Notes under the pieces: generated by a model
What the model was told of the DNA's origin: nothing
The model's database searches: none
What the model saw: the letters and a program-made list of their open reading frames with translations, nothing else
Origin: Candidatus Marinacidobacterales bacterium
GTDB lineage: Bacteria; Acidobacteriota; Vicinamibacteria; Marinacidobacterales; SMYC01
Direction: 5' to 3'
Assembly (NCBI GenBank): GCA_965224085.1
Contig: CBDCYI010000005.1
Location: forward strand, 928,001-992,000
DNA length: 64,000 nucleotides
Shown: positions 38,325-44,850 of the stretch, one piece after another
Numbering within the stretch: the first letter of the stretch is position 1
Layout of the letters: the number at the start of each line of letters is the position of its first letter
Position numbers and translations under genes: made by a program

Positions 38325-38401
<77 letters not shown>

Positions 38402-38498
38402 ACTCCCCTTTAAAACAGAAGAACTTAGAGACACAGCTTCGGTGGGTTTTGTCTGCATGCTGGTCTCGGTAGGCATTTTGTCCGTGCTTTGTCCGCGT

Positions 38499-38820
38499 TC
38501 ACGCCTTGTGGCGTTTGATGTCGGCTTTCTTGCGTTCGGTCGGGAGGGTCGAGACGTAGCTGTCCGTATTCCTGACCGCTTCTCGGATGTCGTCCTCGTT
38601 GGTGATGTTGTATCTGTCGAAGACGGCACGAGTCTTGTGCCCGCTGATGGGTCGAGCAACGGTCTCGTTGACGCCAGCTCGCACCATGTTACGGATGCCG
38701 GTCCGCCTCAAATCGTAGGGCGTCTTGCCTTCCCTACCCGCAACGATGCCGGCCTTCTTGCAGGCTGTCTTCCACGTCTTCCGGAATTCGCCCATCCGCT
38801 TACCGCCCCAGGCCCTAGCC
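38499..38820 (-). pseudogene. C-terminal remnant of a tyrosine integrase
   Basis: YDLRRT..RNM...ISGHKT..VFDRYNI, next to the tRNA 3' end. Confidence 0.8.
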
Positions 38821-39129
38821 CTGCTCCTTAGCCTTCGCCAAGTACTCACTTACCGTTCCCACCGCCACGTGGAGCGCCTTCGCGATCGTCCGGTGCGTAA
38901 AACCCAGCTCGTGCTTAACCTCAGTATCTCGCGTATCTTTCTCATCCTGCCATTTTCTAGGTCGTCCTCCTTCCGCAACGACCTAGATTGCCTTGAAAAG
39001 CGCTACCGATGAGCGTTCACGGATGCCCGGAACGGGCGTTCACTTTGCCTGGAATCCGTGTTCACGATCCTCTGGAATGGTTGTTCACGTTCGGCTGGAA
39101 TCTGCGTTCACGATGCCCCGGAATACCCA
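38821..39129 (-). mobile_element. IS21-family left end with an istA N-terminal remnant
   Basis: Terminus TGGGTATTCCGGGGCATCGTGAACGC; MRKIREILRL...HELG...[14 protein letters not shown]. Confidence 0.75.
39013..39129. repeat. Five 22-23 bp GTTCAC..GGAA subterminal repeats of the IS21 end
   Basis: GTTCAC at 39015, 39038, 39060, 39083, 39106. Confidence 0.85.
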
Positions 39130-40555: not shown

Positions 40556-40960
40556 TGTCCCTTCCACAAATTCGATCCGCGGAGGTGAAGCGCTCTCGCC
40601 CCCGGACTGAGTTCATTTCAATCGCTGCGGGCAGCATTACGGTGAGCGCGGGCTCGAAGCGCGCCCAAGAACGCTGCGCCTCGCGTGCCAGGGATACCAC
40701 GTCAAGCGCAACGAGCTCAAGCAGCGAGACGACCGTAATAATGATGGAGGGCGCCGACCTTGGGAACGACTATCACTCGCCCCATCGAGCGCCGCTGCAC
40801 CGGTCGTGGCTCGGGGGCTGCGTCGAGCCATTGACGGTCACCGGTAGCTCCATGGGAGTCTTCTTCAGCCTGGCATTCGCTCTCGAGTATCGTCGAAGGC
40901 GAAGAACCGCCAGAGTGGAAATCCTGGTTCACGTGATCCGAACTGCCGGCTCCCATCAGA
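40556..40960 (-). mobile_element. Right-end remnant of an integrase-core (IS481/IS3-like) IS
   Basis: C-terminus PEPRPVQ...VPKVGALHHYYGRLAA*; terminus CGGATCGAATTTGTGGAAGGGACA. Confidence 0.65.
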
Positions 40961-40970
40961 CGCACAGGCA

Positions 40971-41531
40971 CTAGAGCTCGTCGATACGAGGCAGGCGCGC
41001 CGGGTCGATATCCTTCAATCTCGGTGCGTTTGCGTCTCGCTCCGACAGAATCGGCGTTTTGACTGGCCACTCGATTCCAATATCGGGATCGTTCCACGCG
41101 ACCTCGATGCTGTTCTCCGGATGATAGCTATCAGCGCACTTGATGGTGATGAACGCAGTTTCGCTGACGATGCAGAAAGCATGGGCGAAGCCCGCGGGGA
41201 TATAGACGCGCCGTTTGTTCTCGTAAGAGAGCCCGATTGCAACCCATCGGCCGAAGTTGGGTGAGCCAACCCGCAGATCGACGGCAACATCTAGGACCTC
41301 GCCTTGAACTACATAAGCGATCTTGGCCTGCGGGTTGGGGTTTTGTAGGTGCAATCCACGGATCACGCCACCTCGTGAGAAAGACATGTTGTCCTGGACG
41401 AAGCGATCCCGGATGGACCACTTGCTATAGTGGCGGTAACTGTAAGCTTCCAGGAAGTAGCCCCGGTCGTCTTCCAGAACGTCGGGCTCGATCAATCGAA
41501 CACCCGGCAAAGATGTCTCGATGACCTTCAC
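40971..41531 (-). CDS. rfbC: dTDP-4-dehydrorhamnose 3,5-epimerase
   Basis: DDRGYF, FVQDN.SFS..GVIRGLH, IPAGFAHAF, WNDPDIGIEWP. Confidence 0.95.
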   Translation of the reverse strand: MKVIETSLPGVRLIEPDVLEDDRGYFLEAYSYRHYSKWSIRDRFVQDNMSFSRGGVIRGLHLQNPNPQAKIAYVVQGEVLDVAVDLRVGSPNFGRWVAIGLSYENKRRVYIPAGFAHAFCIVSETAFITIKCADSYHPENSIEVAWNDPDIGIEWPVKTPILSERDANAPRLKDIDPARLPRIDEL

Positions 41532-41593: not shown

Positions 41594-42520
41594 CTACTGT
41601 GACGTCCCGGGATCGACAAGACCCCTTTCACGACGTAGCCGTTCGATGAATCCACCCCTTCGGCCGTAGCGCAGGAGATTCATGACTCCCCGTGGATTGA
41701 AGTGGAGAGCGATAGCGGCTCGTTTGATGAGGTTGACGAGGGATCTCTTTAGCAACGCCGCCACTCCGAGATCGAGACTATCGATGGCGTAGTTTCGCGC
41801 GATCGCGGTCGATTCCCGCTCGCGGAAGTCGGGCTCGCTCACGAGGCGGTTGTAGAGCGCCTCGTTTTCTAGGAATTCGCGCTTTGCATAGAGTCCGGGA
41901 CGGTTCGAGCTTTCGACTGCAACCACCGTCAGTTGCGGAATCCCGCGAATCGTCTTCCCCGCCCGCCAGGCGCGGTAGAGCCAGTCGCCCGAGGGCACGT
42001 CGAACGTCTCCCGATAGGAGCGCCAGGGGCCGACCTCCTCTATAGCCTCGCGGCGGATCACCCAGCTTGACGCGCGTACATCCATGTACGGTGCGAACGT
42101 TTGATCGGGGACCACGCTGCTCAGCCAGTTCGGCCCGTCTGCCCTCACTACTTCGACCATGGAAAAAACAACATCCGCCTCGTGGGTTTCCACCTCTCGC
42201 ACACAACTTTCCAAATGATCCGTCAGCCAAAGATCGTCGTGGTTGAGGTACGCGATGTAGCGGCCGCTGGAGCGCCGAAACCCCTCGTTGTTGGGGCCTG
42301 ACTGGTCGCCGACGTTTCGAGGCAAATTTACGAAGCGGATTCTCGGGTCGTCAAAGGAGCTCATGACTTCCTGTGTATCATCGGTGCAAGCGTCTCCCAC
42401 GACCCACAGCTCCCAGTTCTCCACGGTCTGGCGCACCACGGTGTCGATACAGAACGGGAGAATGTTGCTGCGGTTGTAGGTAGCCATGATGACGGAGACC
42501 AAGGGCGACGTATCCTTCAT
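41594..42520 (-). CDS. Glycosyltransferase family 2
   Basis: VSVIMATYN, VVGDACTD, AYLNHDD. Confidence 0.9.
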   Translation of the reverse strand: MKDTSPLVSVIMATYNRSNILPFCIDTVVRQTVENWELWVVGDACTDDTQEVMSSFDDPRIRFVNLPRNVGDQSGPNNEGFRRSSGRYIAYLNHDDLWLTDHLESCVREVETHEADVVFSMVEVVRADGPNWLSSVVPDQTFAPYMDVRASSWVIRREAIEEVGPWRSYRETFDVPSGDWLYRAWRAGKTIRGIPQLTVVAVESSNRPGLYAKREFLENEALYNRLVSEPDFRERESTAIARNYAIDSLDLGVAALLKRSLVNLIKRAAIALHFNPRGVMNLLRYGRRGGFIERLRRERGLVDPGTSQ

Positions 42521-42608
42521 GTCGATCAGCGGGGGCGTTGGGGATGGGATTATAGGCTAGGCTGGCTCCGTTCACCAGTTTTGGCCAATTCGGTACCCGG
42601 ACGGGCCC

Positions 42609-43831
42609 TGGTAGGGTCTCTGGCTGGCGCGGTAGATGTAGGTAAGGGGAGTAGCTGTTGCCGGCGGCTTTCGCCAAGTGCCGGTGCCTCAGTCCTTACC
42701 ATGTCCCCGTTTCCAGCCCCCGCCGCGTCGCACGCAGCATGCGGATTTCCCGCACTACGCGCTCCTGCACACTTCTGGTCAAGGGTTATGTGACCTATCC
42801 TGCGGGGGCAACTGTCGGCGAGAATCCAAAATCGTAGATCCCCCGTCGACTCCATCGCTTCCCGCCAAACTCTTGACGCAATAAAGCACCAGGACGGTTC
42901 GGCCTTCGCCTTGACGTATATCCTTCGTCTCAGCTCCTGCAGACTGACGGATGAGTTTGTCATCTCACCCCTGCCTCACTTGTCGAACGAAGGATCGGTG
43001 TGCAGCAGGGCCCCTTTGCTCCACAGGCGTTACCCCGCTTCAACGCTATTACGGACCCAGCCGCCACCGTCTCGTCTTCAGCCGATTTCCCGGGGGCGCC
43101 GGTTATACGACTTACCTTGCTCCAGACATTTCTGCCTGGGACGAGGACGGCTTCTCCAGTTGCTTGGCATGTCCTTGTCACCGTGCTGTCCCTACCACCC
43201 CGCCGGAGTGGCTCGCCGCGACAGTCAGATTGCGACCAGCCATGCTGCCTTCACCCGAAGAGAGAGGGCTCGGCCTCCGGACCTTTAAATTATCGAGGCC
43301 ACCTGTGGGTTCACTTGCGTTACGGCCCGGTAACTCGCTCACCATCCTAAAGATGGCTTTGTCAGTCAGCTTCTTCCCCTTCGTTTCCTCCACGAACGTG
43401 ACTTAAGCTACGGGGCTTCTGACTCTTGCCCCGGTGGGACTTGTCTCCCACTGAACATGCCAGCCTTCACTGGACGCACTCCCTTTCATTTATTCATCCG
43501 GGCGCGTCGCAGTTGATCGTTCACGCACGGCGGCTCAGCATCCCGGCATGATTTGGGTGTTTCTTCGCTCGCTCATCTTGGCGTTCAAGACTCGTCGCGA
43601 GATGGGGCGAGTGACTGTCGTTCCCAAGGTCGGCGGCCTCCATCACTATCACAGTCGTCTCGCTGCTTGAGCTCGCTGCGCTTGACGCGGTATCCCTGGG
43701 ACACGAGGCGCAGCGTTCCTGGGCGGGCTTCGAGCCCGCGATCACCGTGATGCTGCCCGAAGCGATTGAAATGAACTCAGTCCGGGGCGAGAAGCGCTTT
43801 ACCTCCGCGGATCGAATTTATGGAAGGAACT
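42609..43831 (+). mobile_element. Internally deleted (MITE-like) integrase-core IS whose left terminus is split by the intron
   Basis: Removing the intron yields left end TG|TCCCTTTCATTTATTCATCCG; transposase N-terminus MIWVFLRSLILAFKTRRE fused to C-terminus MGRVTVVPKVGGLHHYHSRLAA*; right end CGGATCGAATTTATGGAAGGAACT. Confidence 0.7.
42611..43479 (-). ncRNA. Group II intron ribozyme with an internally deleted RT/maturase ORF
   Basis: 5' GTGCG at 43479; domain V-like GAGCGCGTAGTGCGGGAAATCCGCATGCTGCGTGCGACGCGGCGGGGGC; 3' CCCTAC at 42611; IEP N-terminus MTNSSVSLQELRRRIYVKAKAEPSW sits directly next to IEP C-terminus ..KRWSRR...APAG*. Confidence 0.88.
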
Positions 43832-43952
43832 GGGGAGAGCGATGGCGGAAAAGCAATGTAGTATGCGCAGGTCGGTAGGAGCGAGAGCGGAAAACTGGTA
43901 GCATCTTCCGTCTGGCCGGCTTTTATCACTCTCGAGCGGAAAGGGTACGGAA

Positions 43953-44264
43953 ATGCCCGTCCCGCGATGGTTCGAAGCTACGTTTCTCGAAGCCGAACAG
44001 AGTACCGCTGCTGTCGACTTCACCCATCTTGGAGAACAGTTCGGGCTACGGATCGAGGAAGTAGTACGTCCGCGCGAGCTGAAGAAATGGTGGAGCCTCA
44101 CCAGCGAGTGGGCCGATCCGAAGGCCGTCGAGCCGAATCGCCTCGGCGATACGGAAAGCAAGATCCTGTCCTTTCTCGAGCAAGAATGCAGCGCCTGCAT
44201 GGCCCGCGTCCCCGAGGACAAGCGGGCCGACTTCTTGCGGGGCGTCTGGGCAAAAAGGAACTGA
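43953..44264 (+). CDS. Hypothetical protein
   Basis: ORF only, with protein-like composition. Confidence 0.4.
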   Translation: MPVPRWFEATFLEAEQSTAAVDFTHLGEQFGLRIEEVVRPRELKKWWSLTSEWADPKAVEPNRLGDTESKILSFLEQECSACMARVPEDKRADFLRGVWAKRN

Positions 44265-44273
44265 GCGGGTGCG

Positions 44274-44850
44274 CTCCATCGCCTAAAGGCGATGGGTTCG
44301 CGGGCGACTAAAGTCGCCTAAAGGCGCACGGCGGAGGATTACTCGCTTACCCTGAACGACTCGTCGTCTTCCGGCAGCCCTCCTTGCAGCTCGATGTACT
44401 TGGCCACAACCTCATCGGTCACGTTTCCGCTCGTCGCTACAAAATAGCCGCGCGCCCACAGGTGCCGACCCCAAAACTTCTTGCGGATCGCTCGAAAATC
44501 ACGCATCAGCTTGTGCGATGTCTTCCCCTTGATCGCCTGCATTACTCGGCTCGGCGACAGCCGTGGCGGCACGCTCAGCAACAGATGAACGTGCTCTGGC
44601 CGTACATGGCCCTTCAGTATTTCTATGTGGTGCGTCGCACAGATCTCTCTTATCAACTCCCGCAGGCGAAGTGCTACATCTCCTCTCAATACCGGCTTGC
44701 GGTACTTCGGGATGAATACGAAATGGTAGTTTAATTGATACGTCGTGTGCGATGATTTCCGATATCCTTTCATCCGGGGATCGTACCGCAAGCCTCCTAA
44801 AGGCTTCGCCTGAAGGCGAGGGGTTTCAACCATCCCCGAGTGAGACACTA
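44274..44850 (-). mobile_element. IS200/IS605-family element (TnpA only, no tnpB); ends approximate
   Basis: Hairpins at both ends (CCATCGCCTAAAGGCGATGG, GGCGACTAAAGTCGCC; CTTCGCCTGAAGGCGAGG). Confidence 0.75.
44339..44773 (-). CDS. tnpA: IS200-family Y1 HUH transposase
   Basis: YHFVFIPKYR, EHVHLL, IKGKTS, LWARGYF, KYI. Confidence 0.93.
   Translation of the reverse strand: MKGYRKSSHTTYQLNYHFVFIPKYRKPVLRGDVALRLRELIREICATHHIEILKGHVRPEHVHLLLSVPPRLSPSRVMQAIKGKTSHKLMRDFRAIRKKFWGRHLWARGYFVATSGNVTDEVVAKYIELQGGLPEDDESFRVSE

What the first reader, a model, noticed from the sequence alone, without database searches (positions are those of the whole stretch)
42609..43831. Group II intron whose EBS loops match the terminal repeat of the IS it occupies
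Seen: the intron (minus strand, 43479-42611) has 5' exon ...CGGATGAATAAATGAAAGGGA and 3' exon CA.... Joined, these give ...AAAGGGA|CA, the terminus of a miniature integrase-core IS, so the intron sits 2 nt inside the IS end. The d3-like hairpin GCCGAGCCC-TCTCTCTTC-GGGTGAAGGC carries UCUCUU (43263-43258), which pairs with IBS1 AAGGGA with one G-U. An upstream AUUUA (43290-43286) pairs with TAAAT at exon positions -13 to -9. An unoccupied IS end with the same AAGGGA|CA junction lies at 40556-40563. Known: EBS-IBS pairing sets group II intron targeting, and some introns home into IS genes, terminators or attC sites. Inference: this lineage may specifically parasitise multicopy IS ends, gaining many safe sites and disabling the end by separating the terminal dinucleotide.
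Basis: partly seen in the sequence, partly recalled or inferred. Interest (0 to 1): 0.75.

Follow-up and report, generated by a model that had tools for sequence, protein, structure and literature searches.

The report
Dead intron inside transposon tip
A decayed, protein-less group II intron sits two bases inside the end of a small transposon because its RNA guide sequences match that end, a new target detail for the already known habit of bacterial introns living inside other mobile DNA.

Summary
A group II intron lies on the minus strand at 43479-42611. Its EBS1 (43263-43258) and EBS2 (43290-43286) pair with the last 13 nt of its 5' exon. That exon is the left inverted-repeat tip of an internally deleted rve-type IS, and the IS terminal CA lies beyond the intron at 42610-42609. 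EBS-IBS pairing covaries across 32 distinct copies.

Close full-length relatives (93-97% identical) occupy the same IS tip in two other genomes. A sister subfamily occupies the equivalent position in a second IS family. In all, 30 of 34 5' junctions examined are at IS tips.

The window copy is a fossil:
- It has no reading frame for its protein.
- Three bases are changed in the domain VI stem next to the branch adenosine.
- The genome holds no matching intact intron protein.

Occupancy is low: 1 of about 46, 1 of 11 and 1 of 113 such ends in three genomes. Most ends carry a mismatch at -2. The wider intron clade also targets other introns and kinase genes.

Introns homing into IS elements, ORF-less derivatives and shifting target specificity are all known (RmInt1, Thermosynechococcus). 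The new detail is the terminal-repeat tip as target. Inactivation of the IS end is plausible but untested.

The parts
42611..43479 (-). ORF-less group II intron, 869 nt
   Evidence: GTGCG 5' end. Rfam RF02003 at 113 bits. The 3' end is fixed by alignment to 8 homologous copies and to 2010/2011-nt full-length relatives.
43315..43453 (-). Domain I 5' part, matched by Rfam group-II-D1D4-4
   Evidence: 113 bits, E = 1.7e-24, model positions 1-138 of 138.
43286..43290 (-). EBS2 (AUUUA)
   Evidence: Lies in the 17-nt loop of a GGCCUCG/...GGAGGCC hairpin. Covaries with exon positions -13..-9.
43258..43263 (-). EBS1 (UCUCUU)
   Evidence: Aligned column for column with UCGUGU, UCCUGU, UGCUGU and UAGUGU of relatives whose exons end ACACGA, ACAGGA, ACAGUA and ACACUA. 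93.8% of cells are paired.
43480..43485 (-). IBS1 (AAGGGA), the last 6 nt of the 5' exon and the subterminal bases of the IS left inverted repeat
43488..43492 (-). IBS2 (TAAAT), exon positions -13..-9
42609..42610 (-). CA: the first two bases of the 3' exon, read as the terminal dinucleotide of the IS, separated from it by the intron
   Evidence: 45 of 45 unoccupied ends of this IS type in the genome continue with CA and then diverge. +1 is C in all 9 3' junctions listed.
43480..43831 (-). Internally deleted copy (352 nt plus the CA) of a 1256-bp rve-type IS ('IS-A'). The right inverted repeat is at 43831, the left inverted repeat at 43480. The transposase gene would read on the + strand, so the intron is antisense to it.
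   Evidence: BLAST to full copies at C4:1829840-1831095 and C11:360595... Transposase: Pfam rve_3 at 44.2 bits. NCBIfam IS481 at 79.5 bits and IS3 at 73.1 bits, both below cut-off.
42883..42963 (-). Remnant of the intron-encoded protein gene (MTNSSVSLQELRRRIYVKAKAEPSW...). About 1.1 kb is deleted after 42883.
   Evidence: The full relative encodes a 436-aa RT/maturase (TIGR04416 at 343.7 bits).
42730..42764 (-). Domain V hairpin with a 5-nt loop (GAAAU) and a 2-nt bulge
   Evidence: Fold. Conserved in all copies aligned.
42611..42724 (-). Long domain VI (~114 nt), with the putative branch A at 42617
   Evidence: In the full-length relative a single A is bulged 7 nt from the 3' end (z = -3.36).
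42619..42621 (-). AGA where relatives have CCC or CUC. This breaks 3 base pairs of the domain VI stem beside the branch A.
   Evidence: Alignments. Fold energy is -46.3 kcal/mol against -55.4 kcal/mol.
40556..40800 (+). Second, truncated IS-A copy: the right-inverted-repeat tip TGTCCCTT at 40556-40563, unoccupied
   Evidence: 40688-40794 matches 43699-43593 at 90%.

Best explanation
The feature is a non-autonomous and probably inactive copy of an endonuclease-less group II intron. Its RNA features resemble those described for bacterial class F.

How it got there (inferred):
- An ancestor of this copy retrohomed, by reverse splicing guided by base pairing, into the left terminal inverted repeat of an rve-type (IS481/IS3-like) insertion sequence.
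- EBS1 pairs with the 6-7 subterminal IS bases. EBS2 pairs with positions -13..-9. The lineage always has C at +1.
- The intron therefore enters between ...GGGA and the terminal CA, reading outward and antisense to the transposase gene.

The wider pattern:
- Related subfamilies have shifted their EBS sequences to follow other multicopy targets: the tips of a second IS family, a conserved kinase motif, and domain-V hairpins of other introns.
- This is the known way such introns escape target saturation.

What happened afterwards to this copy:
- It lost about 1.1 kb of its protein gene.
- It acquired a 3-nt change that opens the domain VI stem at the branch site.

Shown here: anatomy, boundaries, pairing, covariation, and recurrence of the junction in other genomes.
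Inferred: the retrohoming mechanism, present inactivity, and any effect on the IS.
For: Intron identity: Rfam 113 bits; GTGCG start, domain V and domain VI.

Boundaries: 8 homologous 3' ends and 5 homologous 5' ends in the same genome.

The target is an IS tip:
- 45 unoccupied ends, all followed by CA.
- Full copies are 1256 bp with inverted repeats and a 339-362-aa rve_3 transposase.

Pairing:
- 6 of 6 and 5 of 5 at the window copy.
- Across 32 distinct EBS/exon combinations, self pairing averages 5.6 of 6 against 3.2 of 6 for 980 cross pairs.
- Formal count: 93.8% and 86.5% paired, changes on both sides at all 11 pairs, no shuffle of 500 reaching the observed score.

Recurrence:
- Full-length copies in G013 and G016 (2010 and 2011 nt, 93-97% identical) sit in ...AAATGGAAGGGA|, with unrelated 3' flanks and with 5' exons that differ at several bases.
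- 5' fragments in G033 and G003 lie at the right-repeat tip ...TTTATGGAAGGGA|.
- 25 junctions of the sister subfamily lie in ...TTTTTGGACACGA|CG. Their IS interiors differ beyond about 35 nt, and EBS1 changes compensate (ACAGGA/UCCUGU, ACAGUA/UGCUGU).

Intron protein: 436 aa, TIGR04416 at 343.7 bits (above the 300 cut-off), ending after the maturase domain.

Decay: ORF deletion; AGA in place of CCC/CUC in domain VI; tblastn finds no intact cognate protein gene, and the other intron proteins in the genome are at most 42% identical.
Against: - No direct evidence of splicing or mobility. No promoter-like site was found upstream.
- A single-sequence MFE fold pairs part of EBS1 in a small alternative hairpin (z = 0.12). 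Only the comparative structure puts it in a loop.
- In G013 the 3' exon starts CT, not CA.
- The window IS copy has A at -7, where the full-length relatives' sites have G pairing with the next EBS base.
- Occupancy is very low, and most ends mismatch at -2. Any specialisation is therefore on a minor variant of the end.
- The IS cannot be assigned to IS481 or IS3 by curated cut-offs.
- Class F assignment rests on two RNA features described in a paper (PMC3753933, passages). It does not rest on a phylogeny.
Confidence: 0.85

Rival explanations
1. Hitch-hiking. The intron entered one IS copy once. The copies seen in several genomes were then spread by movement or duplication of the IS-plus-intron unit (or a larger segment), not by repeated retrohoming into IS tips.
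For: - The G033 and G003 fragments share the same 5' exon and the same downstream truncation although the genomes belong to different families. This looks like one event moved horizontally.
- Only 3 intact A-type junctions are known.
Against: - The 3' flanks of the three A copies are unrelated directly after CA/CT.
- With the intron between the repeat and the terminal CA, the end should not be usable by the transposase (inference).
- The 5' exons differ from one another more than the introns do (about 87% against 93-97%).
- The 25 B junctions lie in IS/MITE copies whose interiors differ beyond about 35 nt.
Confidence: 0.08
2. Reverse order. The intron was there first, and the IS inserted beside its 5' end, because ISs of this family prefer intron sequence as a target.
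For: ISs of these families do land in introns:
- An IS-A end interrupts domain VI at C5:1978763.
- A ~125-bp B-type MITE interrupts domain I at C9:566097.
- In L061 an IS-A tip ...AAGGTACA abuts an intron that lacks its first 2 nt.
Against: - The IS terminal CA lies on the far side of the intron.
- EBS1 and EBS2 are complementary to IS sequence, and they covary with it.
- The same junction recurs with an intact GTGCG.
Confidence: 0.03
3. Functional link to transposition. The tip position is not only base-pair convenience. The intron exploits, or blocks, transposition intermediates at IS ends.
For: - The offset is the same (2 nt from the last invariant base) in two IS families with different end sequences.
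- The intron always reads outward.
- The intron protein lacks an endonuclease domain, so it needs a primer made by something else (established for RmInt1-type introns; abstracts listed).
Against: - A fixed C at +1, together with the invariant C of the terminal CA/CG, explains the offset without any link to transposition.
- One relative (L119) appears to sit 2 nt outside a similar tip.
- Occupancy is very low.
- No experiment bears on this.
Confidence: 0.07

Closest known systems
RmInt1 of Sinorhizobium meliloti in ISRm2011-2
   Same: An endonuclease-less group II intron whose natural homing site lies in a multicopy insertion sequence. It is recognised by EBS1, EBS2 and a +1 pairing, and it behaves as a retroelement rather than a spliced intron (PMC4238363, passages; PMC1802570, abstract in the search listing).
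   Different: - RmInt1 sits in the transposase coding region, in sense orientation, so splicing decides transposase expression. The intron here sits in the non-coding terminal repeat, 2 nt from the tip and antisense to the transposase, so RNA splicing cannot restore the IS.
- The IS families differ: IS630-Tc1 against an rve type.
- RmInt1 is class D. The RNA here has the 5-nt domain V loop and long domain VI described for IIF.
Thermosynechococcus elongatus TeI3/TeI4 intron families
   Same: - ORF-less derivatives arose from a deletion in domain IV.
- EBS sequences diverged into families with new targets.
- Insertion is preferentially into insertion elements (family F4 in ISEL1) and into other introns.
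- Mobilisation of ORF-less copies by proteins acting in trans is proposed (PMC2882425, passages).
   Different: - Those introns encode endonuclease-containing proteins (a figure legend lists D and En domains), and they proliferated within one genome.
- Here the subfamilies are spread over several genera.
- The IS target here is the terminal-repeat tip.
- The window genome holds no intact cognate protein.
Bacterial class F (IIF) introns such as So.us.I2, Ge.ur.I1 and Pe.th.I2
   Same: - A 5-nt loop in domain V and a long, structured domain VI. PMC3753933 passages describe both for IIE/IIF and for IIF respectively.
- An RT/maturase without an endonuclease domain (PMC3552965, passages).
   Different: Membership was not tested by phylogeny. 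PMC3552965 itself questions whether class F is one clade. None of the passages I read gives insertion sites for those introns.
Group IIC introns that insert after terminators or attC sites
   Same: Specialisation on a recurrent genomic motif lying outside genes (PMC12584367, introduction).
   Different: IIC introns recognise a DNA hairpin, use a short EBS1 and have no EBS2. Here there is a full EBS1 plus EBS2, and the target shows no hairpin.

Membership tests
Group II intron | 5' GUGYG and conserved domain I-IV architecture | tested here: met
   GTGCG at 43479-43475. Rfam RF02003 at 113 bits against a 49-bit cut-off, over the full model length.
Group II intron | Domain V hairpin with a 2-nt bulge | tested here: inconclusive
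   The fold gives a 7-bp stem, a 2-nt bulge, a 4-bp stem and a 5-nt loop, and the hairpin is conserved in all copies. However, (E up to 1) listed only RF02003 in 42000-44500, so no Rfam family matched the domain V-VI part.
Group II intron | Domain VI with a bulged branch adenosine 7-8 nt from the 3' end | tested here: inconclusive
   Met in the full-length relative (single bulged A at -7, z = -3.36). In the window copy, AGA replaces CCC and the A lies in a 5-nt internal loop.
Group II intron | EBS1-IBS1 and EBS2-IBS2 pairing with the 5' exon | tested here: met
   6 of 6 and 5 of 5 in the window. 93.8% and 86.5% paired, with covariation, on 32 copies.
Group II intron | Intron-encoded RT/maturase in domain IV | tested here: not met
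   The window copy keeps only about 27 N-terminal codons and the C-terminal remnant. The relative in L018 has a 436-aa protein: TIGR04416 at 343.7 bits (above 300) and Pfam RVT_1. The window copy is therefore an ORF-less derivative.
Bacterial class F (IIF) | 5-nt domain V loop and long structured domain VI (as described in PMC3753933) | tested here: met
   GAAAU loop; domain VI of about 114 nt.
Bacterial class F (IIF) | Intron protein groups with class F references in a phylogeny | not tested
IS481/IS3-type insertion sequence (the host element) | DDE transposase with an integrase (rve) core | tested here: met
   Pfam rve_3 at 44.2 bits against a 26.5-bit cut-off, on the 339-aa protein of the full copy.
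IS481/IS3-type insertion sequence (the host element) | Family-level profile match above the curated cut-off | tested here: not met
   NCBIfam IS481 at 79.5 bits (cut-off 224) and IS3 at 73.1 bits (cut-off 160).
IS481/IS3-type insertion sequence (the host element) | Terminal inverted repeats ending 5'-TG...CA-3' | tested here: met
   TGTCCCTT(C/T)CA... at both ends. CA follows 45 of 45 ends.
IS481/IS3-type insertion sequence (the host element) | Target-site duplication flanking the copy | tested here: not met
   No direct repeat flanks the window copy (the flanks are ...CTCTCCCC and GGGCCCGT...). The paralogous flank at C11 stops matching 2 nt from the tip.

The most novel reading that the evidence does not exclude
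A clade of endonuclease-less group II introns has specialised on the extreme tips of rve-type transposons because transposition itself supplies what they lack.

The reasoning, from the recalled IS3/IS911 model of copy-out-paste-in transposition, is this:
- The transposase leaves a free 3'-OH on the flanking DNA strand a few bases outside an IS end.
- That strand is the one opposite to the strand the intron enters.
- It points into the IS, and it would lie about 5 nt downstream of an intron reverse-spliced at GGGA|CA.
- This is the geometry needed to prime reverse transcription.

On this reading the intron would be a hyperparasite that fires during IS transposition and caps the end it used.
Probability: 0.07. 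Interest if true: 0.8.

Novelty: new variant of a known kind. Interest (0 to 1): 0.45.

Why it matters
This is a clean natural example of how group II introns retarget. Small EBS changes track the terminal repeats of two transposon families, a kinase motif and other introns, and the covariation is clear across several bacterial families.

The terminal-repeat tip is a homing site at which RNA splicing cannot repair the host element. If such an insertion really kills the IS end, introns of this kind would act as one-way brakes on IS spread. That would differ from the splicing-dependent control proposed for RmInt1.

It also gives annotators a practical rule: in these genomes an IS end that seems to lack its terminal CA may have an intron in it.

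For the window itself the biological consequence is small, because both the intron and its IS are decayed.

Tried and rejected
- RNA evidence. The look-up of sequencing runs listed 22 runs, all kept as contigs. Read laying on X1, X3, X4 and X16 showed no joint linking 43480 to 42610, so neither a spliced RNA nor an empty IS tip was seen. Contigs cannot show absence, so this says nothing either way. The RNA run X16 covers only conserved intron parts and probably comes from other organisms.
- Promoter scan of 42400-44400: 0 sigma-70-like sites against 0.5 expected. Uninformative.
- Empty-site search. The 3' flank (42607-42443) is 96% identical to C11:103136-102972, but the C11 sequence upstream is unrelated to the far side of the IS. 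No pre-insertion site could be reconstructed.
- Are occupied IS copies more decayed? All 4 examined lack an intact transposase gene. However, only 3 uninterrupted full-length hits exist in the genome for about 46 ends, so the comparison carries no weight.
- Rfam with a permissive threshold on 42000-44500 added nothing beyond RF02003.
- tblastn of the intron protein against plasmids gave one 72.5% relative, in a Cupriavidus record. The other listed rows were about 29-36% identical. It did not help to assign the class.
- A first regex for 5' ends in the 80 loci was too strict. One search replaced it with BLAST anchoring, which placed 64 of the 80 loci. The 16 unanchored loci were dropped.
- My regexes do not count the window's own end, and the B-end regex was offset by one base. 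Occupied B ends are therefore taken instead.
- Literature. Searches found no paper describing homing into an IS terminal-repeat tip. The main compendium of bacterial intron insertion sites (Dai and Zimmerly 2002) is not held and may list such cases. Supplementary tables of PMC3552965 and PMC2882425, which could give insertion sites of class F and Thermosynechococcus introns, were not opened.
Full report
WHAT IS THERE. On the minus strand the sequence reads ...CGGATGAATAAATGAAAGGGA|GTGCGTCCAG... at 43480|43479. Rfam's group-II-D1D4-4 model matches 43453-43315 over its whole length at 113 bits, against a gathering score of 49. BLAST of the region against the window's own genome (12 contigs, 6.87 Mb) found related intron copies and fragments at about a dozen places. 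Aligning their 3' parts shows that all share ...ACCGCGCCAGCC(CUC/CCC)GACCCUAC, followed by C and then unrelated sequence. It keeps the first ~27 codons of an intron protein (MTNSSVSLQELRRRIYVKAKAEPSW, from 42963) and a C-terminal remnant. Compared with 2010- and 2011-nt relatives in two other genomes (L018, L019), about 1.1 kb is missing. The relative's protein is 436 aa, passes NCBIfam's group II RT/maturase model (343.7 bits, cut-off 300), and ends after the maturase region, so it has no endonuclease domain.

THE HOST ELEMENT. In one search, 23 further places in the genome match the last ~100-125 nt of the 5' exon, and these matches stop at window 43484-43480 (listed with flanks). A regex found 45 unoccupied ends of this type, and every one continues with CA and then diverges. 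Two full copies (C4:1829840-1831095 and one on C11) are 1256 bp long. They have inverted repeats TGTCCCTT(C/T)CA... and an open frame of 362 codons, of which 339 aa from the first Met carry Pfam rve_3. NCBIfam's IS481 and IS3 models match only below their cut-offs, so I call the element an rve-type, IS481/IS3-like IS. The window copy (43831-43480 plus CA at 42610-42609) lacks about 900 bp of interior. The transposase gene starts about 70 nt inside the end that carries the intron and reads the other way. The intron therefore lies in the left inverted repeat, antisense, between the subterminal ...GGGA and the terminal CA.

ARE THE EBS CALLS RIGHT? Yes, and this is the strongest part of the finding. 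When domain I of the copies is aligned, the window's UCUCUU (43263-43258) stands in the same columns as:
- UCGUGU in copies whose exon ends ACACGA;
- UCCUGU where the exon ends ACAGGA;
- UGCUGU for ACAGUA;
- UAGUGU for ACACUA;
- UGUCUG for CAGGCA, and so on.
The window's AUUUA (43290-43286) stands where others have AAAAA (exon UUUUU), GAAGU (ACUUC) or GAAUU (AAUUC). Over 32 distinct EBS/exon combinations, each intron pairs with its own exon at 5.6 of 6 and 4.6 of 5 positions. For 980 mismatched intron-exon combinations the figures are 3.2 and 3.6. The formal count on alignment A1 gives 93.8% and 86.5% of cells paired, changes on both sides at all 11 pairs, 38-52% paired when the partner is slid by 1-3 columns, and no shuffle of 500 reaching the observed covariation score. 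The three pairs that close the EBS1 loop also covary (CG to UA in 13 rows). A single-sequence fold is less clear: EBS2 lies in a 17-nt loop, but part of EBS1 is drawn into a small alternative hairpin, and the fold is no better than shuffles. Genome-wide, only 37 of 13.74 million positions satisfy the window intron's IBS2 + IBS1 + C(+1) rule. Four of those are other unoccupied IS tips.

DOES THE LINEAGE GO FOR IS ENDS? I searched 40 relatives; 14 hold related introns. I read every 5' junction I could fetch. Of 34 junctions:
- 5 are in tips of the first IS family. Three are left repeats (window, G013, G016). Two are right repeats (G033, G003), which look like one event.
- 25 are in ...TTTTTGGACACGA|CG, the tip of a second family of rve-type ISs and ~125-bp MITEs. 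One search lists about 50 such ends in the window's genome, and sequence conservation stops 2-3 nt after the insertion point.
- 2 are antisense in Ser/Thr kinase genes, at the conserved GEVY(R/K)A motif.
- 1 is at an unrelated site with poor pairing.
- 1 is an IS tip abutting an intron that lacks its first two bases.
The B-family junctions lie in IS copies whose interiors differ beyond about 35 nt. They are therefore separate insertions, not copies of one locus. In the much wider set of 80 loci encoding proteins 40-76% identical to the intron protein, 64 could be anchored. Roughly half of these sit directly after a domain-V-like hairpin of another intron. Several others end in IS-tip-like sequences such as ...TTTTGGCGAAGCA| or ...TTTGCGGAGGA|CA. 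So the subfamilies around the window copy do home to IS tips, while the clade as a whole homes to multicopy mobile DNA in general.

HOW SUCCESSFUL IS IT? Not very. The window's genome has 1 occupied end among about 46. G013 has 1 of 11 and G016 1 of 113. G033 and G003 hold 192 and 177 ends (the reversed-pattern control gave 0). Most ends read AAGGCA, which puts a C-C mismatch at -2. Only the rarer AAGGGA variant fits.

The window copy itself looks dead. It has no protein gene. tblastn finds no intact cognate gene anywhere in the assembly (95% complete), and the other intron proteins are at most 42% identical. AGA at 42621-42619 replaces the CCC/CUC that pairs beside the branch adenosine in all relatives, at a cost of about 9 kcal/mol, and it turns the single bulged A into a 5-nt internal loop.

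COMPARISON WITH WHAT IS KNOWN. That bacterial group II introns live mostly in intergenic DNA and in other mobile elements is textbook (PMC12584367, introduction read; PMC4424553, passages).
- RmInt1 homes into ISRm2011-2, but within the transposase coding region and in sense, so that its poor splicing limits the IS (PMC4238363, passages).
- In Thermosynechococcus, ORF-less introns derived from one deletion diverged in EBS. They insert preferentially into an IS (ISEL1) and into other introns, and are mobilised in trans (PMC2882425, passages).
- The 5-nt domain V loop and long domain VI seen here are described for the IIE/IIF and IIF lineages (PMC3753933, passages). A Solibacter intron is among the class F founders (PMC3552965, passages).
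Against this background the finding is a new variant. The homing site is the non-coding terminal-repeat tip, used in two IS families and several genera. At that site, splicing cannot restore the host element. I found no description of this in seven literature searches. However, the main compendium of insertion sites was not available to me.

MECHANISM AND RIVALS.
- The simplest reading is ordinary EBS-guided retrohoming by an endonuclease-less intron, with the offset set by the lineage's fixed C at +1 meeting the invariant C of the IS's terminal CA/CG. I give this 0.85.
- Spread by hitch-hiking of an IS-plus-intron unit is unlikely for the B family and cannot be fully excluded for the three A copies (0.08).
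- IS insertion next to a pre-existing intron is contradicted by the split CA and by the covariation (0.03).
- A functional tie to transposition intermediates is geometrically attractive but untested (0.07).

Public contigs from three runs bridge both junctions without a difference, so the arrangement is not an assembly artefact. These runs may include the source sample.

Noticed in passing
G000:C9:853151-856086 (L003/L005): Twintron. A B-type copy (its first 16 nt deleted) carries a 2036-nt insertion at the position equivalent to window 43048/43047. The insertion begins GTGTG and encodes a different RT/maturase, about 42% identical to the fragment used as query.
   Followed up: partly
G000:C5:1978763 and G000:C9:565800-566097: Reciprocal nesting. 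An IS-A end (TGTGCCTTCTATTTATTCATCC...) truncates domain VI of one intron copy. A ~125-bp MITE with B-type inverted repeats interrupts domain I of another.
   Followed up: partly
L067-L146 (loci from other phyla): About half of the 64 anchored relatives begin immediately 3' of a domain-V-like hairpin (for example GAGCCGGAUGCGGGAAACCUGCACGUCCGGUU|GUGUG). They are therefore nested in other group II introns between domains V and VI. In L075 two 5' ends lie 800 nt apart, in tandem.
   Followed up: partly
G000:C11:1238930 (L004) and G010 (L057): A third subfamily is inserted antisense in Ser/Thr protein kinase genes, at the conserved GEVY(R/K)A motif, with EBS1/EBS2 matching 5 of 6 and 5 of 5. The C11 copy keeps a 220-aa truncated intron protein.
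   Followed up: partly
window 42879-42890 and G000:C4:1590829+~590: The ORF-less A copy (window) and the ORF-less B copies share the same deletion junction. It lies at a 9-nt inverted repeat (CTTGGCGC...GCGCCAAG) that flanks the protein gene, although the window copy is otherwise 93-97% identical to a full-length A intron and only 81% identical to B. This means either recurrent deletion at the stem base or recombination.
   Followed up: partly
window 42443-42607: A 165-166-nt stretch (upstream region and first codons of the family 2 glycosyltransferase gene 41597-42520, minus strand) is 96% identical to C11:102972-103136. The match stops 2 nt from the IS tip, which suggests an IS-associated rearrangement.
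   Followed up: partly
window 38325-38849 and 44342-44848: The surroundings are rich in mobile DNA:
- a tRNA gene (38325-38398, +) followed by a phage-integrase C-terminal fragment (38502-38849, -; 24.8 bits, below cut-off);
- an IS200-like Y1 transposase (44342-44848, -; 145 bits).
A dTDP-4-dehydrorhamnose 3,5-epimerase gene lies at 40974-41531 (-).
   Followed up: partly
G033, G003, G016: The IS-A-type end GGATGAATAAATAGAAGGCAC is extremely abundant in relatives: 192, 177 and 113 matches at 2 or fewer mismatches, with 0 for the reversed control. Most copies in the window's genome lack a transposase gene, so much of the family may be MITE-like.
   Followed up: no
G012:C4:2538150-2538670 (L061): An IS-A tip ...AAGGTACA directly abuts an intron that starts at its third base (GCGTCCAG...). 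Either the IS inserted at the intron's extreme 5' end, or the junction has decayed.
   Followed up: no
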